Origin: Christensenella sp.
GTDB taxonomy: Bacteria; Bacillota; Clostridia; Christensenellales; CAG-917
Direction: 5' to 3'
DNA: 64,000 nt
Assembly (NCBI GenBank): GCA_022009775.1
Contig: CP091723.1
Span: forward strand, 223,382 to 287,381
The notes beneath the pieces are model-generated. The model was given only the letters and a program-made list of their open reading frames with translations, was not told the origin of the DNA and searched no databases. Each line of letters begins with the position of its first letter. The stretch's first letter is position 1. Position numbers and translations under genes: made by a program. Positions 1 through 53,336 of this stretch are shown one piece after another.

Positions 1-205
1 GACGTGCGGGAGCCCTTGTGTGTGTAGTACGAGCGACTGCGCCGTGTTGTTGCGTAGCCGGCGCACAAAGCGTGGTGGCATAATGAGTGCACGACACCTA
101 TCTATGCGAGTGCTGAGTGTTGTCCCCCGCCACGCGGTCACCGTGGGTACCCTGAAAGGGGGAACGGTGATAGGGAAAACACCTGAGGAAAGGGGAAAAT
201 TGCAT
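1..205 (+). repeat. L-element copy 1 (multi-copy structured repeat), cut by the window edge; conserved core 27-205
   Basis: Core GTACGAGCGACTGCGCC..GGCGCACAAAGCGTGGTGGCATAATGAG..GGGAAAACACCTGAGGAAAGGGGAAAATTGCAT aligns with 3548-3731. Bases 1-26 carry the same CACACACAAGGG stem arm seen in copy 6. Confidence 0.85.
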
Positions 206-296: not shown

Positions 297-1813
297 TTAG
301 AAGAGTTTCTTCAAGCGGTTGATATACTCCTTGCTCTCTTGCATATTCTCTTCACCGAAGAGTTCGCTGAGATAAAGGATAAGACCGTCGATTTCGTCGC
401 GGATGTATGACAAGTTGAGCGATTCGAACTTGCGGAATATCTTGTTGCAAAGCACGTAGTCGAGACCGTCGATTTCTGTTCCGCCGCAACCCACGTATGA
501 AGGAACGAACTCTTTGAGCTGCTTCACGATACGGTTACCAAACGCGAGACGGAAGTGTTCGATGACGTAGTCGTCAAGCAAATTGACCTTGTCGAGAATG
601 TCTTGAGAGACCTTGTGTATCTCCTGCGACTCTTTGAACATCGCTTCAAGGTGCTTGTAGCTGATGAAGATGTTGTCCGCCCACGGCGCGTCGAAAGGCA
701 CACCCTTGCTGTTGATGTTGATAGGCATAGCACGGTCGTAAACCTTATCCGATATGGCAAACGTCGAGTCGTCGTTGTTTGCCGTGCCGATAAACCACAT
801 GTTTTGCGGGAGTCTGAAACGGCCTTTGTCGATATGCTTCGGGTCGTTTGGCCAACCGGACGGAACAAGGTCTACAATCCACTCATCGCGTGACGGCATT
901 TCGAGAATAGACAACATTTCCGCGAAATAGTACTCGACACGCGCGATGTTCATTTCGTCGAGAACGGTGAGATAGATCTGATCGTTCCAAGTTGCCTCGT
1001 ACATTTTTTTGAGCACTTCGGTCTCGTTGAAACGTTTTGTAAATTCGTTGAAGTATCCGAAAAGTTCGGTACGGTCACGCCAAGACGGCTGCACGGACGC
1101 GATAGTTGCGGGGTTGTTCAAGAAAATACCCATAGCGTGCGGCAGGGACGTTTTACCTGTACCGGAAATACCCTGCAAGATCATCAAACGCGACGTGGAC
1201 ATACCTGCAATAAACAAGCGGATGATACGCGGATTGTAGAACAGGCGCATACGCGAGCAAGCGAAGTTGCGGAAACGATCGCACAGCTCGGGGAGCGTGA
1301 TCTCGTCGTCATAGACGGGCGGAACGTAGTTCTCGTAAATCTTGTCGATTTCGGTGAGTTTGTAGAAACGTGACTCGCCTGTTGGCGACTGCTCTTCCTT
1401 CTTTTGTTCGCCTTCTTCCCCTTCTTCGCCTTCATAGTTGCCGATATCGCTGACTCTCATGCCGAGAATACGGTCTTTTTCAGCGGACATTTTGATGATT
1501 TGCTTTTTGAGATTGGCACATTCTTCCACGAGATCCTGCGGCAAAACCTTGGCTTTGGAGAGCCTTGCGAGTTTGCGCAAGCCCAGCGCGATAAGCACGA
1601 TGATTGCGATGATGACAGCAAAAATAAGTATTATGAAAATGATAGCGACAGCCCATTCTCCCGCGCCGAAGTATTGGGTGTAGTTCTTGAAAGCGTCGGC
1701 ATACCCCTCGTTGTAGAAGATATGCAGAAAACCCCAGAATATACTCCCGATCCCTTGTCGTAGAATGCGCCCAAAAACGCTTTGAGAAATTCAAATACAA
1801 GATTGATATTCAT
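297..1813 (-). CDS. McrB-like AAA+ (AAA_5) NTPase with N-terminal TM helix; apparent 1-nt frameshift near 1732-1760 (solid ORF 297-1598)
   Basis: Walker A GISGTGKT; LDEMNIARVEYYFAEMLSILE and FIGTANNDDS resemble McrB DEINRA / GTMNTADRS motifs. Upstream frames give MNINLVFEFL.. plus the hydrophobic stretch AVAIIFIILIFAVIIAIIVLIALGL. Confidence 0.7.
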
Positions 1814-3065: not shown

Positions 3066-3421
3066 GATAAACCTGCCTGATTGATGCTTCTCCGCTTCCG
3101 CCCGAGACTTATTGCCACACACCGCGCCAAAAGCGCAGCCGAGAGATCAGCGAATGACTATTGACGTCGTGCGAGCCATGCTTGTTGCCCTTAAACGGAT
3201 AATATCCGCTTCACTCGCCCGATTTTGCTGAAACGCATAGTTATACAACTATACATATTGTATTGTAACTTATCGCGCGCACGATGTCAACAGCAAAAAT
3301 CGCAAAACCGCCCAAAATCATCCGAAAATCTTCCCCAACCGCCCGATCTCGCCCATATTGCGCGCTTTTTCTCTTTTAAGTGGTTTACGCAGAGTTGCGA
3401 TCATAAGTCGCAACTCTGCGT

Positions 3422-3928
3422 AAAGCCGTCCTTTTGCCACAAACGGAAAGCCTATTCGGGGCGTACTTATAAACGGAATGTGTGACTTCGAAGACGGATT
3501 TGGAGCCGCAAGGCGGCGACCGTATCGAACGCCGAGCTTGACGATAAGTACGAGCGACTGCGCCATGTTGTTGCGTAGCCGGCGCACAAAGCGTGGTGGC
3601 ATAATGAGAGAATGGCACTTATTTATGCGAGTGCTGAGTGTTGTCCCCCGCCACGCGGTCACCGTGGGTTCCCTTGCAAGGGGGAACGGTGATAGGGAAA
3701 ACACCTGAGGAAAGGGGAAAGTTGCATTAAAGTTTGCACACCCAAACCACACTCTCACTTGCAGAACAGAACAAAACAAAAAAATAAATTTAGGGATAAG
3801 GTTTTTGAAAGGGGCTTTATCTCGATAAGGAGAAAAACGATGAAAAAGAAAGGTTTGATTATATCAACAGTCGTCATGGTTGTTGTGCTGATCGCATCTC
3901 TCACCACCGCTACTTACGCTTGGTTTAC
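3422..3928 (+). repeat. Left arm of the ~505-bp inverted repeat. Contains L-element copy 2 (core 3548-3731), 5' UTR/RBS and the first 29 codons of CDS 3840-4862.
   Basis: Reverse complement of 7584-8087. The only differences seen are a T4/T3 run, a 3-nt GCA indel (~3761) and an A7/A8 run. Confidence 0.95.
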
Positions 3929-4862
3929 GACTTCTGCATCTACAAGCATTCAAGGCTTTGACGTAAGTGTTGCAGCCGGTAACGTTATGAATATCGGTTT
4001 GAACAAAAATGGGCATACAACTTACAGTGCTTCTGCAACACCAGATAATTTTGTTTCAGGAGCATGTGAATATGTCGCTGATCCTACAAACGGTCAATTT
4101 GCTGCCGGTTATTGGACTGGAGAAGTTGAATCCCTTGGTTCTACAATAACACATAATATAAAGTGGAGCACGCAAAATAAAGCCGTTGGATTTTCTTCAG
4201 ATGCTACAGTAGGAACCGATGCAAAAAATGCAACTTTTGCAAATACTAAATTAATCACACAAACTGGCTGGACACATGCAGTTAAAGCAAATGGTGACTC
4301 AACCAAATTTACGGGAAATGCAGAATATGCAAGCGCAAATATTGGAGCCGGTGATACAAATGGTGACTATGTTTATATGTTCCTTGGTGCACAACCGACA
4401 AAAGCGATTCAAACTGGAACTAATAAACTCTATGTGGTCATCCAACCCCAAGGCAATGGTACGACTAATGGTATGGCAGCAGCAATTCACGTTGCGTATA
4501 AGCTCAACGCCGCAACTACTTGGAATGATGTTGATTTCTCTACAGTTGCAAAAGAAGGTAACAAAAAGTATTCAGATCCTAAAGCTGGCAATACTGCAGT
4601 GATATACGGTGATTATCATGATGCCGCTGGAATGCAAAATGGTACTTATTCTGCAGAAACAAAACAGACTACTTTTACAGGTGCAGTCGTAGTTGAAATT
4701 TCTCTCAATGACTGGGACGGAACTGGCAAAGCTCCGCTTGATCAAATCCAACTTGTTATTTATCTTGCTGGTGCTGATACCGATTGTGTTGATGCAGCAA
4801 AAAATGGTACCGTAAAGATTGGTTTGTTCTTTGGCGCACAAGAAGTCCAAATTGGTGGCTAA
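3840..4862 (+). CDS. Secreted protein with SipW-cognate-class signal peptide (TasA-like fibre/matrix subunit candidate), paralogue A
   Basis: MKKKGLIISTVVMVVVLIASLTTATYAWFT matches the K-rich / TM / (G)TYAYF(T) pattern of SipW-dependent signal peptides. Strong RBS AAGGAG. C-terminal motif VIYLAGADTDC..GTVKIGLFF is shared with the paralogues. Confidence 0.8.
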   Translation: MKKKGLIISTVVMVVVLIASLTTATYAWFTTSASTSIQGFDVSVAAGNVMNIGLNKNGHTTYSASATPDNFVSGACEYVADPTNGQFAAGYWTGEVESLGSTITHNIKWSTQNKAVGFSSDATVGTDAKNATFANTKLITQTGWTHAVKANGDSTKFTGNAEYASANIGAGDTNGDYVYMFLGAQPTKAIQTGTNKLYVVIQPQGNGTTNGMAAAIHVAYKLNAATTWNDVDFSTVAKEGNKKYSDPKAGNTAVIYGDYHDAAGMQNGTYSAETKQTTFTGAVVVEISLNDWDGTGKAPLDQIQLVIYLAGADTDCVDAAKNGTVKIGLFFGAQEVQIGG

Positions 4863-6463: not shown

Positions 6464-7672
6464 TTATGCGAATGTTATTGGTGCGCCGTCAGTGAAATCC
6501 CAAGTAATATTAGTAGTATCTTTCGGAGCGTATGCAAAGTTGATTTTAACAGTCATTGCAGTACCAGTTGTGACGTTTTTACATTCAGCATCAGTGCCTT
6601 CAACCCAAATATACATAGACACATAGTAAACATTGTTTGCAACAACATTGCCGTCGCTCAAGACGCAAGTATATTTACCATTTTCATTTGCCTTGCCGTC
6701 TTTTGCTTCCGTATACCCATTGCCGTCTTCTTTAGACATTGTGTTGCTAGCAGTGAGTTTATATTTGCTGAAGGGGGCAATTTCAGTCTCTTTAAATGTA
6801 GGAGCTGTCTCACCGTTGCGTTGTGCTGTTCTTACTTTTATTCTTGTCGCCGCAGCCATACCGGGATTGGTAGCACTTGCTTCTTTTGTACCAGAAAGGT
6901 TTGTTAAACCACTAGGAACAACCTCAATACTGAAACCAAGTGCGCCAACATCCATAAGGTTGGTTACTGCCATTGTCAAATGGTAATATGTTCCGGTTTG
7001 GTTTGCCGATACAAGTTTGTATCCCAAAGGCTCGGTTTTGCTATCATATCCAATAGGTTGATAATATGCACCAGTAGAATTGGTATCCTCCGTTTTGACA
7101 ACCAAATAGTTTGCAAAACCAGCACTCGTAGGAGCTTCAACTGAGGTGATTGAAACGTATCCGTCCAAATCTCCAGCAACCGCTTTGCCTGTTGCTTCCT
7201 TGTAAACATTAGTTGCAGTATCAAGTTTATAGAAACCATCAACACTAGCACCTTCAGTTACAGTTTTAGGAGAAGCTGTAAAATAATCTTCATTCGCGTT
7301 AAAGGTTCCAGTTGCTTTGGTATAGCCCACGAAAGTTTTAACTGCAGTACCATTTGCAAAATAAGTTGCTGCGTGTTCAAGTTTTCCAACTGTAATTTCT
7401 CCAAAGCCAAGATAAGTACCCCAAGTATCAGAGTCACCGCTCCAAGCATTGTTTTCGTATCTCAATGCACCAGAATAAAGACCATTTGAAATTGAACCTT
7501 CTTTTCCGGTCATTGCAATTTGAAGACCTTGAGCCGCTTCAGTTGTGATTGTCAAATCGTCAACTGTTGCCTGAGCTTGCGAAGTAAACCAAGCGTAAGT
7601 AGCGGTGGTGAGAGATGCGATCAGCACAACAACCATGACGACTGTTGATATAATCAAACCTTTCTTTTTCAT
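6464..7672 (-). CDS. Secreted protein with SipW-cognate-class signal peptide, paralogue B
   Basis: The first 29 codons are identical in nucleotide sequence to paralogue A, then diverge. Shared internal GMAAA motif and C-terminal YIWVEGTDAEC..TVKINFAY. Confidence 0.8.
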   Translation of the reverse strand: MKKKGLIISTVVMVVVLIASLTTATYAWFTSQAQATVDDLTITTEAAQGLQIAMTGKEGSISNGLYSGALRYENNAWSGDSDTWGTYLGFGEITVGKLEHAATYFANGTAVKTFVGYTKATGTFNANEDYFTASPKTVTEGASVDGFYKLDTATNVYKEATGKAVAGDLDGYVSITSVEAPTSAGFANYLVVKTEDTNSTGAYYQPIGYDSKTEPLGYKLVSANQTGTYYHLTMAVTNLMDVGALGFSIEVVPSGLTNLSGTKEASATNPGMAAATRIKVRTAQRNGETAPTFKETEIAPFSKYKLTASNTMSKEDGNGYTEAKDGKANENGKYTCVLSDGNVVANNVYYVSMYIWVEGTDAECKNVTTGTAMTVKINFAYAPKDTTNITWDFTDGAPITFA

Positions 7673-21348: not shown

Positions 21349-21372
21349 TAAAAAAAGAGCGTCTCCGCTCTT
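21349..21372 (-). terminator. Intrinsic terminator between L-element copy 5 and spoIIIAA
   Basis: Minus strand: AAGAGCG-gaga-CGCUCUU followed by U7. Confidence 0.7.
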
Positions 21373-21411
21373 GATTTCGATTTTATATAAAAATAATTTT
21401 CCGTCGTGTAT

Positions 21412-21700
21412 TTTAATGCAACATTACCCCTTCCCTTCGGGCTTTCCCCTACTTCTCGAAGATAGTGCTTTCTCTTTTTAGCTATACATCGCTCGAAGAT
21501 GGGAAGTCGGCACTCGCATAGACAAGTATCGTCCTCTTGTTATGCCACCACGCTTTGTGCGCCAGGCAGTAGCTAACAACACGGCGCAGTCGCTCGTACA
21601 ACCGTCAAGCTCGGCGCTTATTTGCTCGCCGCCGTTGCGGCTCGTGTTCCGTCTTCAAAGTCGCACAGTCCGTTAATAAGTACGCTCCGAATAAGTTTTC
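21412..21700 (-). repeat. L-element copy 5 (subtype 2; core 21412-21599)
   Basis: Conserved blocks TTTAATGCAAC.., ..GGCACTCGCATAG.., TTATGCCACCACGCTTTGTGCGCC..GGCGCAGTCGCTCGTAC. The variable hairpin is replaced. Confidence 0.85.
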
Positions 21701-21708
21701 ATTTCAGG

Positions 21709-21826
21709 TGTGGGTGTCCCGCCCAATTAAAACACCAAGCCGACAATCTTGCGAAATTGCGGTAGGGGTTTTTATCCGTGACTGAACTAATAGCAAAGAT
21801 TTTCGGCGCGGTTAGCAGAACAAAAG
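21709..21826 (-). repeat. Module-2 repeat, copy b
   Basis: Aligns with 10190-10312. Confidence 0.8.
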
Positions 21827-21893
21827 CCTAATGCAGCTCTCGGTGTTGCTTGCAAGCAAGCGATGCCGTTGCCGCCATGACGGCTTTTGTTCG

Positions 21894-21940
21894 GATGAAG
21901 AGCGAGAAAAAGCTCTTGCAGGGCAACCACTAAATTTTTT
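21894..21940 (-). repeat. Truncated T-module (only one stem arm plus the U-tail flank)
   Basis: GATGAAGAGCGAGAAAAAGCTCTTGCAGGGCAACC then diverges. Compare 22053-22090. Confidence 0.6.
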
Positions 21941-32301: not shown

Positions 32302-32505
32302 GGTTTACCTTCCTAGTAATATATAATATTAGTATTGAAAATTATACCACAAACAAGACGCGTTTTCAAGAGAAAAGAAAGAGAAAAATTATCGTATATT
32401 TTTTGACAAGGTTAGATAGCCGAATTTGAATTAATAATTAATAATGAACAATTAACAATTAATTTTTTTAGTAGGATAACACGCAACATAAAAACGCGAT
32501 ATTGA

Positions 32506-32650
32506 GATGAAAAACAAGAAAACACCCATCCAAAACAAAACCCAACGTACATTGGGTACGTGATTTTGGAGCGGATGGGTGTTGTAAGGAACGAAGTGAC
32601 GGAATAGCGATTGTTACGCTTTGCGTCAATCGCGTCCGATGTTATTCGCT
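32506..32650 (-). terminator. T-module (variant) terminator, second of two after the M16 peptidase gene
   Basis: Minus strand: ACACCCAUCC..GGAUGGGUGU stem with apical GUAC..GUAC, then UUUUCUUGUUUUUCAUC. Confidence 0.7.
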
Positions 32651-32670
32651 ATTGGCGTTTTCTAAAAAAT

Positions 32671-32836
32671 GCGCTAAATAGATGAATGACGCGAAAGTGC
32701 CCCGAGAATGACAACCCTAATGTGCATGTAGTACATGAGTTGGCAGGCTCAGGGCACTGTAAGGAACGAAGTGACGGAATAGCGATTGTTACGAAGTCAA
32801 TCGCGTCCAAAGTCAGTCGCTATTTAGCGCGTTTTT
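32671..32836 (-). terminator. T-module whose outer arm pairs with the last codons of the M16 peptidase CDS
   Basis: GCGCTAAATAG (32671-32681) is complementary to CTATTTAGCGC (32820-32830, inside the CDS). Apical CAACCCTAATGTGCATGTAGTACATGAGTTG. Confidence 0.7.
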
Positions 32837-34079
32837 GATGTCGATGTCGTCGAAACGAGATACAATACTACTGCACACGTTCGTGAAATCAAAGATTTCA
32901 CGCGAAGCACGCAAAACGTCTTCGGCGGTAGTTTGGTCTATCATTGATATGCAGGTATCGAAGTCATAAAGTTGTCCGGTTTGAACGGCGTGCGCACCGA
33001 AAGTTCGCATCATTGCGGAAGTACTTTCCTGCCCGAGAACAAGCGACGTTTTGAGTTGTTGTTTGCCTTTTTCGAGTTCCTGCTCACTCACGCCTTTTTC
33101 GAGCAAAAGATCTATTTCTTCCCTGATTGCGTGCACCGCTTTCAAGGCGTTTTCGGGGCTTGTTGACGTGTAGATTATAAAGGCACCGTTCTTCTCGTAT
33201 GCGGACGGATAGCCGTAAATCGTATAGCAAAGTCCGTGCTTTTCTCTGACGCTTTGGAAAAGTCTTGACGACATTTCCATGCTGAAAATTATGCACATAA
33301 GTTGCATAGCGACTCCCCTGTCGTCGTTGTACGGATAGCACGGGAACGCAAATGCGATATGGCTTTGTTCGATGTCTTTTTTCTTCTTGCAGGACGTCGA
33401 ATGTTCGGGACGCACGTTGACAGGTTGCGCGTCGTATTTCACGCCTTTTTCAAACTTGCTCTCGAAATATTTTTCCACGAGTGAAACGGCTTGCTCGACG
33501 GTCATATTGCCGGCAATGGAAACAATCGTGTTTGGTGCGACGTAATGCTTTGCGTGATACGCTCGCAAGGTCTCGCTCGTCATAGATTTCAACGTCTTTT
33601 TCGTGCCGAGAATGGTCTTTTCAAGCGTGCAACCTTTGAAAAAGTTGCTCATAAGGCGTTCAAGACACAAATCGTCGGGGGGTATCTTCACTCTCGTTGA
33701 TTTCTTCGATGACAACCCTGCGCTCCTTTTCGAGTTCGATAGGGTCGAATGCGGGATTGAAATACATATCCGAAAGCACGTCTGCGCATTTTTCAACGTT
33801 CGTATCCAACGAAACAGTGTGAAAACACGTATAACTTTTTGCCGTATACGCATTGATTTGCGCACCGATAGAGTCAATTTCGTTGACGATATCGAAACTG
33901 GAACGAGTTTTCGTGCCTTTGAAAACCATGTGTTCTATGAAGTGAGATATTCCGTTGATTTCGGGAGTTTCACGCACTACGCCTGCGCCGACGAATACGC
34001 CGAGCGCAACCGACCTGACGGCTGTGTTCTGAACAAATACAAGTTTAAGCCCGCTTGGGAAATTTATCATTTTTTGCAT
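32813..34079 (-). CDS. M16-family (pitrilysin/insulinase-like) zinc peptidase (frameshift in a G6 run near 33683)
   Basis: HFIEH zinc motif (HxxEH) and EEINESED. The two ORF fragments are contiguous. Confidence 0.8.
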
Positions 34080-34127
34080 ACGGACATTATAACACATAGA
34101 TTGATAAGCGCAATCATATTTTATGGT

Positions 34128-34846
34128 ATGAATGAAATTAAGTTCCGTACTTTTTGCGCAAATTTTGTCATAATCGCAACGCTGCTTATGTCGTTTGCGG
34201 TGGCTTTCATTGCCGCTTATCCCGAAAAAAGCGACGTGATGACAGTCAACAACGCCATATACGAAGGCAACAAGGAATCGGGAAAAGTCGCACTGACTTT
34301 CAACGTGTACGAGCGCACGGACAACGTGCTGAAAATAGCGGAAATTCTCAACGATCACGGTGCGAAAGCAACGTTTTTCGTGGGTGGATGTTGGGTCGCA
34401 AAAAACGCCGATACGCTTCTAAAACTATCATCTAACGGCTTTGAAATAGGAAATCACGGATATTCTCATCGCGACCACGCAGAACTGAACGTGAAGAGCA
34501 ACGCCGACGAAATCAGAGTCACCGAAAGACTTATCGACAAGGCTTTGTCGTCACTTCCCGACTACAAAAATTCAAAACTATTCGCTCCACCGAGCGGCAG
34601 TATGGGGAAAACATGTTCATCGTCTGCAAGGACATGGGATACAAGGTGATAATGTGGACAAGCGATACGATAGACTGGCGTGACCACGACGCAAATCTAA
34701 TATTCGAACGCGCAACGAATAACTTGAAAGCAGGCGATATAATTCTTATGCACCCAACAGACGACACCGTCACCGCCCTACCAAAAATTCTCGAATACAT
34801 CTCGGCGCAAGGTCTGACAGCCGACATCGTAAGCAACGTGATTTAA
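34128..34846 (+). CDS. Polysaccharide deacetylase (NodB-type; PdaB-like) (frameshift near 34600-34615)
   Basis: N-terminal TM, LTFNVYE.., GNHGYSHRDH (NodB His motif). Confidence 0.75.
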
Positions 34847-34855
34847 TATGGAAAA

Positions 34856-35234
34856 ACTAAACGCTATATTGATTTTATAACAAGAAAGGGCCGCTCTTCA
34901 CAGGCGGGAGCGTACTTGTTGTACGTGACTGTCTGTGAAGTGGCTCTGCCGTAGTTATTCTCCCCACTGTCCCCCCTATATCCTAAACGCAATATTTAGA
35001 TGAAGAACAAGGAAACACCGCCAAACACAGACAAGAGTGTACTTGCTGTACATGACTGTTTGTGGTGGCGGTGTTGACGCAGTTATTCACCCCAACATTC
35101 TACATACCCTAAACGCACAGTTTAGATGAAGAACAAGAAAGAGCCCCTTGAACAGCAACCCTAATGTACATTTAGTACATGAGTTGATGAGCAAGGGACT
35201 CTGCCGAAGTTGTTCGCTAAACTGTGCGTTTAGG
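34856..35234 (-). terminator. Three tandem T-modules downstream of pnp (approximately 34856-34980, 34981-35107 and 35108-35234)
   Basis: Each unit is CTAAACGCnnnnTTTAGATGAAGAACAAG(G)AAA + a long stem with different but self-complementary sequence + apical GTAC..GTAC + G(A/C)CG(C/A/T)AGTT(A/G)TTC. On the minus strand each stem is followed by UUUCUUGUUCUUCAUC. Confidence 0.8.
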
Positions 35235-37344
35235 CTTTGGAGATGACTTCTTTAAGGCGAAGATCCACCCTATGCTTCTCGTCGATCTTGATGACTTTCA
35301 CGAGAACGATGTCTCCGACGTTGACGACGTCGGTGACCTTCTCAACTCTCTGATCGGAGAGCTTGGAGATGTGGATCATTCCGTCTTTGCCGGGAGCAAA
35401 GTTGACGGATGCGCCGAATTGTCCTTTGTCGTTTTCCATGATTTTGGTGACTTTGCCTTCATACACGTCGCCAACTTCAACGTCGCGAACGATGTTTTCG
35501 ATGATGGTACGCGCTTTCTTGATGGCTACGTCGTCGCTGGATGCCACGAAGATAGTGCCTTCGTCGTTGATGTCGATCTTGACGCCGGTGTCTTCGATGA
35601 TCTTGTTGATGGTTTTTCCGCCCGTGCCGATGACGTCACGAATCTTATCGGGATCGATGGAGAAGGACACGATCTTGGGGGCGAACTTGCTGAGTTCTGC
35701 ACGCGGTGCGGGAAGCGTTGCAAGCATCTTGCCGAGAATTTCGAGTCTGCCGAGTCTTGCTTGTTCCAGAGCGCGAGTGAGAATCTCTTCGTCGATGCCC
35801 TTGATCTTGATATCCATTTGAATTGCCGTGATACCTTCCGTCGTACCTGCGACTTTGAAGTCCATATCGCCAAGGAAGTCTTCAAGTCCCTGAATGTCGG
35901 TGAGCACTGCGACTTTGTGGCTCTCTTCGTTCTTGATAAGCCCCATAGCGATACCTGCGACGGGTGCTTTGATGGGAACGCCTGCATCCATGAGAGCGAG
36001 CGTGCTGCCGCAAACGGACGCTTGTGACGTTGAACCGTTGGAACTCAAAATATCGGATACCGTGCGGATTGCATACGGGAATTCTTCTTCACTGGGAAGA
36101 ACGGGTTCGAGCGCGCGTTCTGCGAGTGCGCCGTGACCGATTTCACGTCTGCCCGGACTCTTGAGTGCTTTCGCTTCACCCGTGGAGTAACCAGGCATAT
36201 TGTATTGATGCATGTATCTCTTGTAGAAATCGTCGTCGAGACCTTCGAGTTTTTGAGCTTCGCTTATCGTGCCGAGAGTGCAAGTGGTGAGAGCCTGAGT
36301 TTGTCCGCGAGTGAACACTGCACTGCCGTGGACTCTGGGGAGCATGCCGACTTCGCACCAGATAGGACGAATCTCGGTGAGAGTTCTGCCGTCGGGACGT
36401 ACGCCGTTGTCGAGAATCTTTGCACGAACTTTTTCTTTCTTGAGATAGTAAAGGCTGTCGAGAATGAATTTGATTTTCTTGGGTTCGTCGTTGAAATCGT
36501 CTGCGAAGTGAGCAAGAACGTCTTCGTTGAGTGCTTCTTCTCTGTCTTCTCTTTCATAGCGGTCGAACGCTTCGAGAACGTAGTCCATCTTTTCGTTTGC
36601 GTATGCACGAACTTTCTCGTTGATTTCGTCGGGGATATGTTCGAGATCCATATCGAGTTTGGGCTTGCCGACTTCTTTTTGGATTTCTTCGATGAACGCG
36701 ACGATTTTCTTGATTTCTTCATGACCGAACATGATTGCGCCGAGCATTTCTTTTTCGGTGATGACGTCTGCGCCTGCTTCAACCATCATGATTGCGTCTT
36801 TCGTGCCGCTGAGATTGAGAGTAAGGCGGGATTTTGCGCGTTGTGCGCTGTCGGGGTTGATGACGTATTCACCGTCAACCAAGCCGACCACGACCGAGCC
36901 CGTAGGACCTGCCCAAGGAATGTCGCTTATAGAGAGTGCGACGGAAGAGCCGATCATGCCGAAAACTTCGGGCGGAATGTTGGTGTCAACAGACAAAACC
37001 GTTGCGATGACGGTGACGTCGTTGTAAAGTCCCTTCGGGAAAAGCGGGCGAATAGGACGGTCGATAAGACGTGAAGTCAAAATCGCCTTGTCGCTTGCTC
37101 TGCCTTCTCTTTTCTTGAATCCGCCGGGGATTTTGCCGATTGCGTACATTTTCTCTTCGTAGTCAACGCTCAAAGGGAAAAAGTCCATACCGTCACGGGG
37201 TGCTTTGCTCATCGTGGCGTTGACCATAACGACCGTGTCACCGCAACGAACGATACAAGAACCGTTGGATTGTCCGCAGTATGCGCCTGTTTCGACGGTC
37301 ATTTCTCTGCCGCCTACCGTTGTCTTAAAAATTCTTTTTTCCAT
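35230..37344 (-). CDS. pnp: Polyribonucleotide nucleotidyltransferase (PNPase)
   Basis: 704 aa. Two RNase PH domains, KH and S1 (..GDVYEGKVTKIMENDKGQFGASV..). Confidence 0.97.
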   Translation of the reverse strand: MEKRIFKTTVGGREMTVETGAYCGQSNGSCIVRCGDTVVMVNATMSKAPRDGMDFFPLSVDYEEKMYAIGKIPGGFKKREGRASDKAILTSRLIDRPIRPLFPKGLYNDVTVIATVLSVDTNIPPEVFGMIGSSVALSISDIPWAGPTGSVVVGLVDGEYVINPDSAQRAKSRLTLNLSGTKDAIMMVEAGADVITEKEMLGAIMFGHEEIKKIVAFIEEIQKEVGKPKLDMDLEHIPDEINEKVRAYANEKMDYVLEAFDRYEREDREEALNEDVLAHFADDFNDEPKKIKFILDSLYYLKKEKVRAKILDNGVRPDGRTLTEIRPIWCEVGMLPRVHGSAVFTRGQTQALTTCTLGTISEAQKLEGLDDDFYKRYMHQYNMPGYSTGEAKALKSPGRREIGHGALAERALEPVLPSEEEFPYAIRTVSDILSSNGSTSQASVCGSTLALMDAGVPIKAPVAGIAMGLIKNEESHKVAVLTDIQGLEDFLGDMDFKVAGTTEGITAIQMDIKIKGIDEEILTRALEQARLGRLEILGKMLATLPAPRAELSKFAPKIVSFSIDPDKIRDVIGTGGKTINKIIEDTGVKIDINDEGTIFVASSDDVAIKKARTIIENIVRDVEVGDVYEGKVTKIMENDKGQFGASVNFAPGKDGMIHISKLSDQRVEKVTDVVNVGDIVLVKVIKIDEKHRVDLRLKEVISKA

Positions 37345-47783: not shown

Positions 47784-48185
47784 TTTAATGCAACATTACC
47801 CCTTCCCTTCGGGCTTTCCCCTATTGCAAAAATAATGACATTTCTCTATCAAAAAAACATCGTTTGCAAAAGGGTAACTCGGCACTCACATAGATATGTA
47901 TCGTTCACTCGTTATGCCACTGCGCTTTGTGCGCCAGGCAGTAGCCAACAATACGGCGCAGTCGCTTGTACTTCACACACAAGGGTTCCCGCGCGTCAAA
48001 AACAAGCGAACTTGTGTTTGAGTTATAAGATGAAAGAGCAGTTTTTTTGCGCGTGGGATAAAGGAACACCAAGACCAAAATGCAAACGGTTGTATCTTGT
48101 TGCAATCGTTGCAATAGGGCTTGTGTGTGACGTAAGTTCGGCGCTCAAAGGCTCGCCGCCTTGCAGCTCGAAATTCCGTCTCTAT
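47784..48185 (-). repeat. L-element copy 6 (subtype 2) with a ~150-nt expansion helix (core 47784-47971)
   Basis: Core blocks are conserved. After ..GCGCAGTCGCTTGTAC, a stem TCACACACAAG (47973-47983) / CTTGTGTGTGA (48121-48131) encloses extra sequence. The distal conserved part (..GCTCGCCGCCTTGCAGCTCG..CCGTCTC) then resumes. Confidence 0.8.
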
Positions 48186-48188
48186 AAC

Positions 48189-48227
48189 AAAACGTTCGGT
48201 TTGAAAACTCAAACCGAACGTTTTTTA
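48189..48227. terminator. Bidirectional intrinsic terminator (yajC on -, also competent on +)
   Basis: AACGTTCGGTTTGA-aaac-TCAAACCGAACGTT followed by T6 on the + strand. UUUUGUUAU follows it on the - strand. Confidence 0.85.
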
Positions 48228-51231: not shown

Positions 51232-52273
51232 TTATTCTTGTGTGTACGCACGTCCTAGATGGTCGTAAGCGTTCTTCGTGCAGACTCTTCCGCGCGGTGT
51301 GCGAGAAATAAATCCGAGTTGAATAAGGAAAGGCTCGACGACGTCTTCGATTGTTGACGCTTCTTCGCCTGTTGCCGCCGCAAGCGTATCGAGTCCGACA
51401 GGGCCACCGCCGAATTTGTCTATTATCGCTTCTATGACCGTGCGGTCGGTGACGTCGAGTCCCAGTTCGTCAACGTCCATAAGCGTGAGTGCCTTTTGAG
51501 TTATTGCGAGATTTATGCCGTCAAGTTTTTCATATTCGGCAAAGTCTCTGACGCGTCTGAGCAGTCTGTTTGCGATACGCGGAGTGCCGCGCGAACGTTT
51601 TGCGAGTTCGAGAGCCGCCTGCTCGTCGATGCCTATTCCAAGTATCTTTGCAGAACGTGCGATTATACGTTTCAACTGTTCGTCGGTGTACATTTCAAGT
51701 CTCAAAGACATGCCGAAACGGTCGCGCAACGGGCTTGACAACATACCTGCTCTCGTGGTTGCGCCTATAAGCGTAAAGTGTTTGAGCGGTATGCGAATGC
51801 TTCTTGCCATAGGTCCCGTGCCGTTGACAAGGTCGAGCGAAAAGTCTTCCATTGCAGGATACAGCACTTCTTCGATGTTGCGATTGAGTCTGTGAATTTC
51901 GTCAATGAAAAGCACATCGCCTTTTTCAAGGTTAGTAAGAATCGAAGCAAGATCTGCCGCTTTTTTCGATTGCAGGGCCGCTCGTCACTCTGATTTGCGC
52001 GCCGAGTTCACTTGCAATGACGTGTGCAAGCGTGGTTTTGCCAAGACCGGGCGGGCCGTAGAGCAACACGTGATCGAGCGCGTCGTTTCTCGCCTTTGCG
52101 GCGGATATGAAGACTTCGAGATTTTTCTTTATCTTCTCCTGACCGACGTATTCGTCCATACTGTGCGGACGAAGGCTGTTTTCTTGTTCGTCGTCTTCGA
52201 TTGTGAGCGAGCTCACCACCCTGTTTGCGACGTCAAAGTCCTGATTTTCTTTTGTGAATTGAGATTTGATCAT
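51232..52273 (-). CDS. ruvB: Holliday junction branch migration helicase RuvB (1-nt insertion in an A/T6 run near 51950)
   Basis: [14 protein letters not shown], and after frame correction ..[31 protein letters not shown]. Confidence 0.92.
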
Positions 52274-52329: not shown

Positions 52330-52363
52330 CGTTTAGTCGTAAGTACGCTCCGAATAAGTTTTT
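52330..52363 (-). repeat. Isolated distal-end fragment of an L-element
   Basis: CGTTTAGTCGTAAGTACGCTCCGAATAAGTTTTT matches the distal end of copy 5 (..GTTAATAAGTACGCTCCGAATAAGTTTT). Confidence 0.6.
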
Positions 52364-52457
52364 GTTTCGGGCGCAAACAAAAAACTTTGTCATCCTGAGC
52401 GAAAAGGATCTCGTGGAAACGAAACTACCAACTTTTTGCGCCCGATAAGTTTTTTTG
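52354..52457. mobile_element. MITE-like 77-bp insertion (52368-52444) with 10-bp perfect terminal inverted repeats and flanking ~13-nt direct repeats
   Basis: TIRs CGGGCGCAAA / TTTGCGCCCG. Direct repeats ATAAGTTTTTGTT (52354-) and ATAAGTTTTTTTGTT (52445-). Confidence 0.45.
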
Positions 52458-52490: not shown

Positions 52491-52745
52491 TTTAATGCAA
52501 CTTTCCCCTTTCCTCAGGTGTTTTCCCTATCATCGTTCCCCCTTGCAAGGGAACCCACGGTGACCGCGTGGCGGGGGACAACACTCGGTCGAGACATAAC
52601 TTGCGCCATTTCTCTTATTATGCCACTTCGCCTGCGTGGCAGCTACGCAACAAGATTCCACGCATTCTTGTACTTTTCGTCAAGTCCGACGCTCGATTTG
52701 CTCGCCGCCGTTGCGGCTCGTGTTCCGTCTTCGAAATTGCACATT
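52491..52745 (-). repeat. L-element copy 7 in the ruvA-ruvB intergenic spacer (core 52491-52673)
   Basis: Conserved blocks are present. Carries the compensatory TGCGTGG/CCACGCA helix variant. Confidence 0.9.
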
Positions 52746-52751
52746 ATAGCG

Positions 52752-53336
52752 TCATTTGCTCAAATTCTGAAGACATCTGCGAATGATCTCTTCTGTGCCG
52801 TGGCACACTTTGCTTGCTTCCGTTGCCATACGCACCGCGTCCGTCTTGGACAAGCCGAGACTTTCGAGTGCGAACACGGCGTCGGCAATGTCTTCGCCCG
52901 TGATTGCGTCTTGGTGGTCATTGAAGAGAGTGATGTCATCCGCAACCTGTTCGCGAAGGCTGAGTATGATAAGTTCCGCCGTCTTTTTGCCGAGTCCTTT
53001 TATCTTGCAAAGCGTCTTTGAATCTCCGCTTGCGATGGCGACGGTGAGCGTTTTAAGATCGTATCCGCCGAGAATCTGCATTGCGAGCTTCGGGCCGATG
53101 CCGCTTATGTCAATTAGGCGCATGAAAAGTTTTTTCTCTTCAAGACGTGAAAAGCCGTAAAGGGACATCTCGTCTTCTCTCACGTAAAGATAGGTGTAAA
53201 TCTTGACGATTTCTCCCATATCGACGTCCATAAGCGTGTTGCCGCTCACGCCGATTTCATAACCTATGCCGTTGTTGTCAACGACAATTGCGGTGAGTGT
53301 CTTGTCTACGATTTTGCCTTGAATGTAGTTGTACAT
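52752..53336 (-). CDS. ruvA: Holliday junction DNA helicase RuvA
   Basis: MYNYIQGKIV.., HhH motifs ISGIGPKLA and IKGLGKKTAE. Confidence 0.95.
   Translation of the reverse strand: MYNYIQGKIVDKTLTAIVVDNNGIGYEIGVSGNTLMDVDMGEIVKIYTYLYVREDEMSLYGFSRLEEKKLFMRLIDISGIGPKLAMQILGGYDLKTLTVAIASGDSKTLCKIKGLGKKTAELIILSLREQVADDITLFNDHQDAITGEDIADAVFALESLGLSKTDAVRMATEASKVCHGTEEIIRRCLQNLSK

What the first reader, a model, noticed from the sequence alone, without database searches (positions are those of the whole stretch)
3422..3745. L-element: a multi-copy structured element with a ~185-nt conserved core, compensatory stem substitutions and a sharp boundary (7 copies in 64 kb)
**Copies.** Core copies lie at 27-205 and 3548-3731 (+ sense), and at 7779-7962, 9813-9996, 21412-21599, 47784-47971 and 52491-52673 (- sense). 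The sense is always co-directional with at least one flanking gene.

**Conserved blocks (sense).**
- GTACGAGCGAC
- TGCGCC-[TTGTTGCGTAGC loop]-GGCGCA, followed by CAAAGCGTGGTGGCATAA
- TATGCGAGTGC
- GGGAAAACACCTGAGGAAAGGGGAAAGTTGCATTAAA

**Evidence for a folded RNA or ssDNA rather than a protein or plain DNA repeat.**
- The helix TGCGCC/GGCGCA, present in six copies, is TGCGTGG/CCACGCA in copy 7, while its loop motif is kept.
- The helix TCACCG/CGGTGA (copies 1-3) is TTGCCG/CGGCAA in copy 4, a double compensatory change. In copy 7 it is TCATCG/CGGTGA, which pairs with a G-U wobble.
- In copies 5 and 6 that same position holds unrelated hairpins that are still self-complementary, for example CCCTATTGCAAA...TTTGCAAAAGGG.
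- The GCATAA/TTATGC helix encloses a different internal hairpin in each subtype.
- ORFs crossing the element are not conserved in frame or sequence between copies.

**Boundary.** All copies end exactly at ..GTTGCATTAAA and diverge immediately after it. That sharpness is reminiscent of transposon-end-derived guide RNAs (omega/reRNA scaffolds) or of a site-specific junction.

I could not match the element to any RNA family I know. I considered T-box, c-di-GMP-I/II, raiA, OLE, RNase P, tmRNA, 6S and group II intron domain V.
- Against: copy 6 ends at a terminator whose T-run reads better on the opposite strand.
- Against: copy 1 lies antisense to its only visible neighbour.
- If the candidate promoter at 7722-7751 is real, the element lies upstream of the paralogue transcription start and is not a 5' leader.
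Basis: seen in the sequence. Interest (0 to 1): 0.85.

Follow-up and report, generated by a model that had tools for sequence, protein, structure and literature searches.

The report
Mosaic structured intergenic repeat family
The seven "L-elements" are real copies of a non-coding, base-paired, modular repeat that is scattered between genes in a group of uncultured human-gut Clostridia; it matches no catalogued RNA family and looks like a large relative of the classic bacterial intergenic repeats, not a transposon guide RNA.

Summary
There are exactly seven core copies at the stated coordinates, none expected by chance, and none is protein-coding. No Rfam family matches, and there are no plasmid or phage matches.

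About 200 further copies occur in related human-gut MAGs and metagenomes, with at least 22 in one MAG. Several helices are kept through changes on both sides, with up to six different but self-complementary stem sequences per helix. Optional hairpin domains are inserted at fixed points.

- Copy 7 has a C•A mismatch, not a G-U wobble.
- The "sharp boundary" is not general. Similarity continues past GCATTAAA within subfamilies, and TTGCAT itself decays in more distant copies.

The element is one module set in a longer mosaic of 270 to more than 450 nt. Copies swap internal modules by gene conversion. They are present or absent between near-identical strains. They lie 60:23 sense:antisense between tandem genes and often sit between convergent genes. 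Neighbouring genes share no pathway, and no transposase-like gene was seen in 1.25 Mb of flanks.

Best reading: a lineage-specific ERIC/BOX/BIME-like interspersed repeat under selection for sense-strand structure. It probably acts in cis on transcripts through a stable fold plus an exposed Shine-Dalgarno-like tract. The guide-RNA idea is not supported.

The parts
3447..3543 (+). Copy 2, 5' module (modA). It holds the small hairpin GUAC..GUGY, the hairpin GCCGC-AAG-GCGGC, and ..GCUUGACG.
   Evidence: nhmmer modA hit, E=2.6e-25. The GCCGC/GCGGC stem is replaced by GCGTTCGC/GCGAACGC in relatives.
3548..3731 (+). Copy 2, core, type I: helices H1-H6 plus the purine-rich tail GAGGAAAGGGGAAAG.
   Evidence: nhmmer E=1.5e-55.
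27..205 (+). Copy 1, core, type I. It belongs to the insertion-bearing subtype and is cut by the window edge. Bases 16-26 are the 3' arm (TTGTGTGTGTA) of the stem that closes the optional domain. The copy ends GCATCCCC.
   Evidence: It lies in a convergent arrangement with the gene at 297-1598 (-).
7779..8063 (-). Copy 3, modA (8063-7967) plus core (7962-7779). It is identical to copy 2 and is part of an inverted segmental duplication that includes the downstream paralogous gene.
9813..10098 (-). Copy 4, modA (10098-10001) plus core (9996-9813). H5 allele is TTGCCG/CGGCAA.
10122..10150 (-). Sigma-70-like promoter TTGATA-17-AATAAT inside an AT-rich heptad module, directly 5' of copy 4.
   Evidence: 10 of 12 matches. 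The same AT-rich module precedes copies in L008, L012, L014 and L033.
9777..9805 (.). 29-nt perfect direct repeat bracketing the copy-4 unit. Its partner is at 10171-10199.
   Evidence: It is absent from the orthologous loci L012 and L033, so it is a product of module shuffling, not a target-site duplication.
21412..21699 (-). Copy 5, modA (21699-21603) plus core (21599-21412), type II (long hairpin 3' domain).
21355..21372 (-). Intrinsic terminator about 40 nt after copy 5, upstream of spoIIIAA.
   Evidence: This stretch is retained in strains that lack the element.
47784..48221 (-). Copy 6: modA (48221-48134), a ~160-nt optional domain closed by TCACACACAAG/CTTGTGTGTGA (48133-47972), and a type II core (47971-47784). 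It lies between two terminators in a convergent gene arrangement.
   Evidence: The same optional domain is present in L062 and deleted in the near-identical L084. Its closing stem covaries (CGCACACAAG/CTTGTGTGCG).
52491..52761 (-). Copy 7, partial modA (52761-52678) plus type I core (52673-52491). It starts at the ruvA stop codon and lies inside the ruvA-ruvB interval. H1 allele is TGCGTGG/CCACGCA. H5 has a C•A mismatch.
52335..52443 (-). Companion modules downstream of copy 7. Module 'Z' is GGGCGCAAA..UUUGCGCCC with an inner hairpin AUCCU/AGGAU. It is followed by the first ~30 nt of another modA, truncated before ruvB.
   Evidence: The inner hairpin is ATTGC/GCAAT in L023 and L025. A weak modA hit lies at 52361-52336.

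Best explanation
The element is one copy of a lineage-specific family of non-coding, modular, interspersed intergenic repeats. The family occurs in uncultured human-gut Clostridia of the Christensenellales type.

**Shown**
- Each unit is assembled from reusable modules. These are:
  - optional AT-rich promoter-like, 'Z' and periodic modules;
  - a ~100-nt 5' module;
  - an optional ~150-nt domain;
  - a ~185-nt core with one of at least three alternative 3' domains;
  - a purine-rich tail;
  - a further hairpin.
- The helices of these modules are maintained by complementary changes on the G-rich strand.
- Copies exchange internal modules by gene conversion.
- Whole intergenic cassettes that carry them are gained, lost, inverted or replaced between very close strains.

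**Inferred**
- Most copies are read through as part of neighbouring transcripts, more often in sense.
- There the stable multi-helix fold, together with the invariant exposed tract GA(G/A)GGAA(A/G)GGGG, acts in cis on the RNA. This tract can pair with 7-8 nt of the canonical 16S 3' end CCUCCUUUC.
- The likely effect is that of a 5' or intercistronic stabiliser, a barrier to RNase J or Y, or a ribosome-loading site for the downstream cistron. This would be analogous to REP, ERIC or BOX elements and to STAB-SD sequences.
- The host effect may be small. The family may persist largely through duplication and conversion.
For: **Multi-copy and non-coding**
- 7 copies in the window.
- 198 core hits, 99 of them unique, falling into 27 clusters at 90% identity.
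- No reading frame is conserved.

**Structure**
- 96.6% of cells pair. 9 pairs and 100 cells show changes on both sides. 0 of 500 shuffles reach the observed count, and slid controls give at most 6 cells.
- H1 has six different self-complementary stem sequences and H5 has six.
- H3 changes T-A to C-G, and H4 changes CCGC/GCGG to CUGC/GCAG.
- Optional domains are inserted at fixed points and have covarying closing stems.
- The type II domain is 92% paired, with G·U alternating with Watson-Crick pairs.

**Strand**
- The sense strand folds better in 99 of 99 cores (mean -63.4 against -50.9 kcal/mol).
- G·U is the majority state at three pairs.
- In tandem intergenic regions the orientation is 60 sense to 23 antisense.

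**Mosaicism and conversion**
- At the orthologous copy-4 locus, the window and L033 have 95-100% identical flanks but different H1, H2 and H5 alleles.

**Turnover**
- queA-tgt is empty in the window and filled in L006 and L009.
- The tRNA-Leu site differs, as does L113 against L150.
- L055 and L100 carry the element in opposite orientations.
- The spoIIIAA cassette is swapped in samples with an identical SpoIIIAA protein.

**Other**
- Neighbouring genes share no pathway. They include spoIIIAA, ruvB, tgt, secDF, prmC, adhE, ppa, glgA, pepF, radical-SAM genes and tRNA-Leu.
- The tail is invariant in all 51 type-I and all 36 type-II cores and is mostly unpaired in MFE folds.
Against: - There is no expression data, so transcription, transcript ends and strand are all inferred.
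- A single-sequence fold of copy 2 is no more stable than shuffles (z = -0.74).
- 23 antisense copies and 24 copies between convergent genes, several of them between two terminators such as copy 6, cannot act on a downstream cistron.
- Among minor variants in type-I helices, C•A mismatches (about 10 cells) are not rarer than G·U (about 6). The wobble argument therefore rests on a few majority-G·U pairs that I defined on the sense strand.
- Part of the covariation signal reflects whole hairpin alleles moved by conversion, not independent events.
- The gene calls behind the orientation counts come from my own codon-usage caller, and orthologous loci are counted more than once.
- A short ORF after the tail is not conserved.
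- The Shine-Dalgarno pairing assumes the canonical 16S 3' end, which is not in the window.
Confidence: 0.45

Rival explanations
1. It is a purely selfish, non-autonomous mobile element. The fold is the substrate recognised by an enzyme encoded elsewhere in the genome. That enzyme could be a Y1/HUH transposase of the RAYT or IS200/IS605 type acting on single-stranded DNA, or a reverse transcriptase acting on the RNA. Any effect on the host would be incidental.
For: - Copies are present, absent or inverted between near-identical strains.
- Copy number is high, at least 22 in one MAG.
- Several copies sit at contig ends in fragmented MAGs.
- The orientation bias in a Firmicute could reflect the replication strand and not transcription. 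The minus strand is the G- and A-rich coding strand across the window.
- Copies occur at sites where no cis role is possible.
Against: - No clean insertion was seen. Every filled/empty comparison shows replacement of tens to hundreds of bases.
- There are no terminal inverted repeats or target duplications. The one 29-nt flanking repeat is absent from the orthologous loci.
- No transposase-like or multi-context ORF was found in 1.25 Mb of flanks.
- A 270-450-nt multi-junction fold with alternative domains is far more than HUH enzymes need.
- Copies at ruvB, tgt and spoIIIAA are retained across species that are 88-96% identical.
Confidence: 0.25
2. It is a family of trans-acting non-coding RNAs or RNP scaffolds. 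This includes the first reader's idea of omega/reRNA-like guide scaffolds derived from a transposon end, with the sequence after the boundary acting as a guide.
For: - It has a conserved scaffold with an invariant single-stranded tract.
- Some copies have a promoter-like site or a downstream terminator, so they could be separate transcription units.
- No known family matches.
Against: - The 3' flanks fall into a few conserved classes and are not unique guides.
- The terminal TTGCAT is not conserved in the wider family.
- There is no TnpB, IscB, IS110 or RAYT-like neighbour.
- Most copies have no recognisable promoter.
- Copies inside operons start at the upstream stop codon.
- Dozens of near-identical sRNA genes with no partner protein have no precedent.
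Confidence: 0.08
3. It is a DNA-level element. It would be a binding platform for a nucleoid, replication or recombination protein, or a recombination hotspot, with hairpins extruded as cruciforms or formed in single-stranded DNA.
For: - It is strictly intergenic and lies at sites of frequent rearrangement and cassette exchange.
- It is common between convergent genes.
- Hairpin covariation alone cannot distinguish RNA from ssDNA.
Against: - There is strong strand asymmetry: G 31.5% against C 20.5%, and the sense strand folds better in 99 of 99 cores.
- Its features are typical of RNA architecture, not of protein-binding DNA. They include GNRA-type loops, majority G·U pairs, a nested multi-helix junction and optional peripheral domains.
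Confidence: 0.07
4. It is a cis-regulatory leader, either a riboswitch or a T-box-like element, that senses a global signal and controls the downstream gene.
For: - It has a conserved structured core upstream of, and co-directional with, many genes.
- Copy 5 is followed by a terminator before spoIIIAA.
Against: - There is no Rfam match.
- Downstream genes share no pathway, and one is a tRNA.
- The 23 antisense and 24 convergent copies do not fit.
- The element is absent upstream of the same gene in strains with an identical protein, while the terminator stays.
- The copy-6 terminator belongs to the convergent gene.
- Copies are 80-100% identical even in loops. This points to recent duplication or conversion, not to independently conserved aptamers.
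Confidence: 0.05

Closest known systems
ERIC/IRU elements of enterobacteria, and BOX elements of Streptococcus pneumoniae
   Same: - Dispersed, non-coding and strictly intergenic.
- Tens to hundreds of copies per genome.
- Usually inside transcribed regions, in either orientation.
- Stable predicted RNA folds.
- Modular (boxA-B-C), or with extra segments inserted at fixed internal sites (ERIC).
- Variable presence between strains.
- No transposase of their own.
   Different: - This unit is larger (270 to more than 450 nt, against about 127 nt or 100-200 nt).
- It is not a simple imperfect palindrome. It is a multi-helix junction with alternative 3' domains, an invariant purine tract and several companion modules.
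- Its host lineage and its sequence are unrelated.
- Membership of these families cannot be claimed. The resemblance is one of kind only, and my knowledge of ERIC and BOX comes from memory of the literature, not from a test here.
REP/BIME mosaic elements (with RAYT transposases), and the bcr1-bcr18 repeats of the Bacillus cereus group
   Same: - Mosaic combinations of a few motif types in intergenic regions.
- Frequent at 3' ends of genes and between convergent genes.
- Hairpins kept by compensatory changes.
- A proposed role in mRNA stability.
- Some bcr repeats were reported to have conserved RNA structure.
   Different: - REP units are about 35-nt single hairpins with a GTAG motif and an identified RAYT partner. 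No RAYT was found or could be searched for here.
- No terminal inverted repeats or target duplications like those of the MITE-type bcr repeats were seen.
TnpB/IscB omega RNA (reRNA, HEARO) scaffolds
   Same: - A structured scaffold of 150-300 nt.
- It can occur as orphan copies.
- The conserved part ends near a boundary.
   Different: - There is no adjacent tnpB or iscB.
- There is no variable guide after the scaffold.
- There is no HEARO or other Rfam match.
- The boundary is not conserved in the wider family.
STAB-SD and 5'-stabiliser elements of Bacillus mRNAs
   Same: An exposed, extended Shine-Dalgarno-like tract (GAAAGGGG) with no conserved ORF after it, placed upstream of cistrons.
   Different: STAB-SD is a short single-copy motif, not part of a multi-copy structured repeat. 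The function here is only inferred.

Membership tests
Any Rfam 15 family (T-box, riboswitches, OLE, ROOL, GOLLD, raiA, HEARO, 6S, RNase P, tmRNA, group I/II introns) | A covariance-model match at or near the family's gathering score. | tested here: not met
   The whole window at gathering thresholds gives only 4 tRNAs. E-value scans of copy 2, copy 5 and copy 7 with their flanks give only sub-threshold miRNA/snoRNA noise.
TnpB/IscB omega RNA (IS200/IS605 right-end-derived guide RNA) | The scaffold overlaps or adjoins a tnpB or iscB gene, or an IS end, in at least some copies. | tested here: not met
   Pfam scans of 30 flanking proteins show housekeeping or unknown secreted proteins. An all-against-all comparison of 1051 ORFs of at least 220 aa, drawn from the 155 sequences held at that point (1.25 Mb), found no multi-context or transposase-like family. 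Limit: whole genomes could not be searched.
TnpB/IscB omega RNA | A sharp scaffold end followed by a copy-specific guide of about 16-20 nt. | tested here: not met
   The 3' flanks fall into a few shared classes (GTTTCAAAC..TTGTAGAG, ATAC.CGAC, ATTTAGRG). The terminal TTGCAT varies in distant copies.
MITE (non-autonomous DNA transposon) | Terminal inverted repeats and a short target-site duplication; clean empty sites. | tested here: not met
   There are no terminal inverted repeats at copy 4. The 29-nt flanking repeat is absent from orthologous loci. Five filled/empty comparisons all show segment replacement, not clean insertion.
Interspersed structured intergenic repeats (ERIC/BOX/BIME kind) | Non-coding, strictly intergenic, and many dispersed copies per genome. 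| tested here: met
   There are 7 copies in the window, at least 22 in MAG UMGS1043 and at least 14 in H07686. All lie between called genes.
Interspersed structured intergenic repeats (ERIC/BOX/BIME kind) | Modular or mosaic build, with optional internal segments and strain-to-strain presence/absence. | tested here: met
   Modules and alternative domains are shown. Conversion between copies is shown. Polymorphism is shown.
Interspersed structured intergenic repeats (ERIC/BOX/BIME kind) | Co-transcribed with flanking genes and folding as RNA. | not testable with these tools
   Only indirect evidence is available: 60:23 sense bias, strand-asymmetric folding and helix covariation.
REP/RAYT system | A cognate RAYT (Y1 HUH) gene in the genome, and a GTAG-type cleavage motif next to a ~35-nt hairpin. 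| not tested
A recurrent UUGUAGAG follows many copies, but its meaning is unknown.
Riboswitch or T-box-type leader | Sits in the 5' UTR of genes from one pathway, and is kept at orthologous genes. | tested here: not met
   The downstream genes are unrelated. The 47 antisense or convergent copies do not fit. The element is absent upstream of an identical spoIIIAA and of tgt in the window.
Group II intron (ORF-less) | A 5' GUGYG, a domain V of about 34 nt with the AGC triad, and a domain VI. | tested here: not met
   GUGCGAC occurs near the 5' edge of the minimal unit. However, there is no domain V-like helix, no Rfam Intron_gpII or group-II-D1D4 match, and the unit is too short.

The most novel reading that the evidence does not exclude
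The family is a new class of large, multi-domain structured RNA with biochemistry of its own. It could be a ribozyme or an RNP scaffold whose fold drives its own copying or exchange between intergenic sites (an RNA-level mobile element). Alternatively it could recruit ribosomes or RNases in a way not yet described. The invariant purine tract and the conserved unpaired CGAUGU and AGAGAAA motifs would then be functional sites.
Probability: 0.12. Interest if true: 0.85.

Novelty: new variant of a known kind. Interest (0 to 1): 0.55.

Why it matters
If transcribed, this would be one of the largest and most elaborate interspersed structured repeats described in bacteria. It has interchangeable domains, and it sits next to core genes (ruvB, tgt, secDF, spoIIIAA, tRNA-Leu) in abundant but uncultured human-gut Clostridia.

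It offers a natural system for studying three things:
- how structured RNA modules spread, recombine and are kept folded;
- how such repeats reshape promoters, terminators and operon spacers between strains;
- why MAG assemblies of this clade break at these sites.

It also supplies a ready-made alignment for a new Rfam-type family.

Tried and rejected
- **Rfam.** Gathering thresholds on the whole window and E-value scans on three copies gave nothing.
- **Other collections.** The viral contig scan found nothing. BLAST against plasmids and phages found nothing.
- **Single-sequence folding** of either strand of copy 2 was no better than shuffles.
- **RNAalifold on mixed subtypes** gave a poor consensus because MAFFT misaligns the alternative domains. 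I split the set into type I and type II.
- **A closing helix between the 5' GCGACU and the 3' AGUUGC** is rejected. It uses different registers in different subtypes and is broken in distant copies.
- **Pairing of the H1 loop GCGUAGC with GCUACGC in H4** is 7 bp perfect in some copies but does not covary.
- **CGAGA/UCUCG pairing** is contradicted by mosaic copies such as L030.
- **A mini-ORF (TTG CAT TAA) after the Shine-Dalgarno-like tail** is not conserved. ORF lengths range from 1 to more than 28 codons.
- **The 29-nt direct repeat around copy 4 as a target duplication** is rejected because it is absent from the orthologous loci.
- **A naive longest-ORF gene caller** gave wrong orientations because of long antisense ORFs. 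I replaced it with a codon-usage caller.
- **Sigma-70 promoters as part of the element** were found only for the AT-rich module of copy 4.
- **CsrA-type GGA repeats, RNase P CR-I (GAGGAAAG) and Cas12a-like UUGUAGA resemblances** were noted by eye and not pursued. They are recollections, not tests.
- **Literature searches** found no description of this element.
Full report

Yes, in its main points.
- A 35-nt motif from the 3' part of the core, TAGGGRAAANNCCNNAGGRAAGGGG(N)AANRTTGCAT, matches seven times in the window against 0.00 expected.
- Profile searches place the cores at 27-205 and 3548-3730 (+), and at 7962-7780, 9996-9814, 21599-21413, 47971-47785 and 52673-52492 (-).
- A maximum-sensitivity search finds no eighth copy.
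- The element does not code for protein. No frame is open in more than 20 of 99 unique cores, and core lengths fall evenly into the three mod-3 classes.

**2.

- *Copy 7.* It carries TCACCG/CGATGA, a C•A mismatch on the proposed sense strand, not a G-U wobble.
- *The boundary.* It is not sharp.
  - Copy 1 ends GCATCCCC.
  - Copies 2 and 3 are one inverted segmental duplication that runs on into the downstream paralogous genes.
  - Copies 4 and 7 and many relatives continue with GT(T/C)TCAAAC..CACCC..TTGTAGAG..GTGAAC.
  - Copies 5 and 6 continue with ATAC.CGAC.
  - In more distant copies TTGCAT becomes TTTAAT, TTCTAT, TTACAT or TGTAT, while a block ATTTAGRG and a further covarying hairpin follow.
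- *Extent of the unit.* The 185-nt core is only part of it.
  - A ~100-nt 5' module (modA) precedes six copies, although in copy 7 its 5' end is truncated (profile positions 16-98).
  - In copy 6, and by inference the truncated copy 1, modA is separated from the core by a ~160-nt optional domain. That domain is closed by an 11-bp stem, TCACACACAAG/CTTGTGTGTGA.

**3. Wider family**

- One scan of species-representative genomes found 34 loci in five MAGs. These are uncultured Clostridiales UMGS1043 and UMGS1366, 'bacterium' H07686-L1, an uncultured Clostridia bin, and Christensenella sp. UBA7588.
Every stretch whose record title names a source is a human-gut assembly.
- Across the 155 sequences held at that point (1.25 Mb) there are 198 core hits. 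99 are unique full-length cores, in 27 clusters at 90% identity.
- UMGS1043 alone carries at least 22 copies.
- The window's genome is not one of these. It is 88-96% identical to them in syntenic stretches.
- No copy was found in viral contigs, plasmids or phages.

**4. Structure**

I compared the variants and derived six helices for the commonest ('type I') core.
- *Overall.* On 51 distinct sequences, 96.6% of cells pair. Nine pairs and 100 cells show changes on both sides. Shuffles give 35.9±4.6 such cells and none of 500 reaches the observed value. Sliding the 3' partners by 1-3 columns leaves at most 6 such cells and 34-55% pairing.
- *H1.* It occurs with at least six unrelated but self-complementary stems: TGCGCC/GGCGCA, TGCGTGG/CCACGCA, GCAAGTGC/GCACTTGC, GCCGACAA/TTGTCGGC, ACGGGCGA/TCGCCCGT and TGTGAC/GTCACA.
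- *H5.* It also has six: TCACCG, TTGCCG, TTCCG, TCGCCG, ACGCCG and ACGTCG, each with a matching 3' arm.
- *H3 and H4.* H3 changes T-A to C-G. H4 changes CCGC/GCGG to CUGC/GCAG.
- *Type II cores (copies 5 and 6).* H4-H6 are replaced by one long hairpin, CCCCU.UUGC../..GCAA.AGGGG, which is 92% paired. It varies mostly by G·U alternating with Watson-Crick pairs, and it has conserved unpaired CGAUGU and AGAGAAA. A third 3' domain also exists (L119, L122).
- *Optional hairpin domains.* They are inserted at fixed points:
  - 47 nt after GACCG;
  - about 85 nt inside UAGGG^AAAAC;
  - the ~150-nt domain between modA and the core. This domain is present in L062 but deleted in the 99-100% identical L084, and its closing stem covaries.
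- *Companion modules.* They are also structured. One example is the 'Z' module, whose inner hairpin AUCCU/AGGAU becomes AUUGC/GCAAU.
- *Caveat.* Copies are related, and hairpin alleles travel as units (section 6). The cell counts therefore overstate the number of independent events. The number of distinct, perfectly complementary alleles per helix is the stronger argument.

**5. Which strand?**

It folds better than its complement in all 99 cores, with means of -63.4 against -50.9 kcal/mol.
- G·U is the majority state at three pairs.
- In tandem intergenic regions, sense copies outnumber antisense copies 60 to 23.
- Against this, rare variants in type-I helices are as often C•A as G·U.
- A single-copy fold is no better than shuffles.
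- Sense-strand RNA is the likelier reading, but single-stranded DNA cannot be excluded.

**6. Genomic behaviour**

- *Neighbours.* They have nothing in common. They include spoIIIAA, ruvB (inside the ruvA-ruvB spacer, starting at the ruvA stop codon), tgt, secDF, a DUF1385-PrmC fusion, adhE, pyrophosphatase, glycogen synthase, oligopeptidase F, radical-SAM/SPASM proteins, secreted proteins of unknown function, and tRNA-Leu.
- *Position.* With a codon-usage gene caller, copies fall as 60 tandem-sense, 23 tandem-antisense, 24 convergent and 9 divergent. Copy 6 lies between the terminator of its upstream gene and a terminator that belongs to a convergent gene. It therefore cannot be a 5' leader.
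- *Gene conversion.* At the orthologous copy-4 locus, the window and UMGS1043 share flanks that are 95-100% identical. They carry different H1, H2 and H5 alleles, while H07686 has the window's alleles.
- *Turnover between close relatives* is frequent.
  - queA-tgt lacks the element in the window but has it in two relatives.
  - A tRNA-Leu site and the L113/L150 site differ in the same way.
  - L055 and L100 have 98-99% identical flanks but carry the element in opposite orientations.
  - Samples that encode an identical SpoIIIAA protein carry a 131-aa ORF where the window has copy 5.
- *No clean insertion.* In none of these cases is there a clean insertion with a target duplication. Tens to hundreds of bases are replaced instead.
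- *Copy 4 repeat.* Copy 4 is bracketed by a perfect 29-nt direct repeat. That repeat is part of another common module and is absent from the orthologous loci.
- *No mobility genes.* No terminal inverted repeats were found. No transposase-like or multi-context ORF appeared among 1051 ORFs in the flanks.

**7. What it most likely is and does**

*Shown.* It is a lineage-specific family of non-coding, modular, interspersed intergenic repeats. Its helices are maintained by selection, it recombines among copies, and it turns over quickly.

*Inferred.*
- Most copies are read through in the transcripts of their neighbours. One module does supply a good promoter, TTGATA-17-AATAAT, ahead of copy 4.
- They probably act in cis at the RNA level.
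- The most conserved feature is a mostly unpaired purine tract, GA(G/A)GGAA(A/G)GGGG. It is invariant in all 51 type-I and all 36 type-II cores.
- From general knowledge of the 16S 3' end, this tract could pair with 7-8 nt of CCUCCUUUC. No conserved ORF follows it.
- A stable 5' or intercistronic fold plus a ribosome-binding decoy is the recipe of known Firmicute mRNA stabilisers. I therefore favour a stabiliser, processing-barrier or ribosome-loading role. The evidence is modest, and about 40% of copies are badly placed for such a role.
- The main rival is a purely selfish element whose fold serves an enzyme encoded elsewhere.
- Guide-RNA, riboswitch and DNA-binding readings are less likely, for the reasons given under each.

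**8. Comparison with known systems**

- No Rfam family matches.
- In kind it resembles ERIC, BOX, REP/BIME and the structured bcr repeats. Like them it is intergenic, multi-copy, mosaic, foldable and strain-variable, and it has no gene of its own.
- It differs in size, in its multi-junction architecture with interchangeable domains, and in its invariant purine tract.
- It fails the tests I could run for omega RNAs, MITEs, riboswitches and group II introns.
- I rate it a new variant of a known kind.
- Literature searches, including a survey of structured RNAs in human microbiomes (PMC8040213), turned up no description of it. It could still be hidden among unnamed candidates.

**9. Verdict**

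It is a real, unusually elaborate, uncatalogued structured repeat family. The guide-RNA interpretation is not supported, and the function remains inferred. Interest is 0.55.

Noticed in passing
window 51232-52273 (-): ruvB is split into two ORFs (51932-52273 and 51232-51915) that together cover the RuvB domains. The orthologue in L006 is a single 346-aa ORF. This is either a frameshift/pseudogene or an assembly error.
   Followed up: partly
window 9777-9805 and 10171-10199; 10152-10170 and 10342-10360: Two nested pairs of long perfect direct repeats (29 nt and 19-28 nt) bracket the copy-4 unit and a ~160-nt module that is also found upstream of copy 5 (10188-10311 matches 21704-21825 at 84%). 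The orthologous loci L012 and L033 lack both the extra module and the repeats.
   Followed up: yes
L155-L160 (2200-2990), compared with window 21380-21900: Samples that encode an identical SpoIIIAA protein carry an AT-rich 131-aa ORF with no Pfam hit where the window carries copy 5. The junctions are at ..CTCTTCATCCG and ATCGAAATCAAGAGCGG... In L159 a large serine recombinase gene lies immediately upstream.
   Followed up: partly
L033 1330-1480, L012 80-200, L062 8900-9060; window 12482-12520: Next to the element upstream of tRNA-Leu(UAA) there is a 25-nt duplicate of the tRNA 5' end (GCCGGAATGGCGGAATAGGCAGACG), followed by a different hairpin. The window has only the tRNA. Its origin is unexplained. 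It could be an integration scar or a tRNA-like decoy.
   Followed up: no
window 52335-52443 (-); L011 3600-3690; L023 3' flank: Additional structured companion modules travel with the element:
- 'Z', GGGCGC..GCGCCC, with an inner hairpin that covaries (AUCCU/AGGAU against AUUGC/GCAAU);
- a 32-nt periodic unit, CTTATACACGCAC.CTGC.CATTCGGAGCG, repeated 2-3 times;
- a recurrent UUGUAGAG.
   Followed up: partly
window 3759-4862 (+), 6464-7672 (-); L144, L148: The paralogous proteins downstream of copies 2 and 3 have no Pfam hit. Their N-termini are of the SipW/TasA type (..LTTATYAWFTTSAS..). This region (4-8 kb) also has a low GC content of 38.8%.
   Followed up: no
window 3384-3424: A perfect 17-bp palindrome (TTTACGCAGAGTTGCGA..TCGCAACTCTGCGTAAA) lies directly 5' of copy 2. 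It caused the only Rfam near-hits, which were miRNA models and are noise.
   Followed up: no
window 32583-32824, 34857-35243, 10478-10660: There are other local repeat families unrelated to the L-element: direct repeats of about 70 nt and about 126-160 nt at 72-86% identity, and a palindromic stretch at 35099-35243. Tandem Repeats Finder reported nothing for 32400-35400; 10478-10660 was not scanned.
   Followed up: partly
L055 6500-7150, compared with L100 2200-3400: Flanking genes are 98-99% identical, but the intergenic region is wholly different. The element lies in opposite orientations in the two. L100 additionally has a ~190-nt tandem duplication that includes the start of the downstream gene.
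   Followed up: partly
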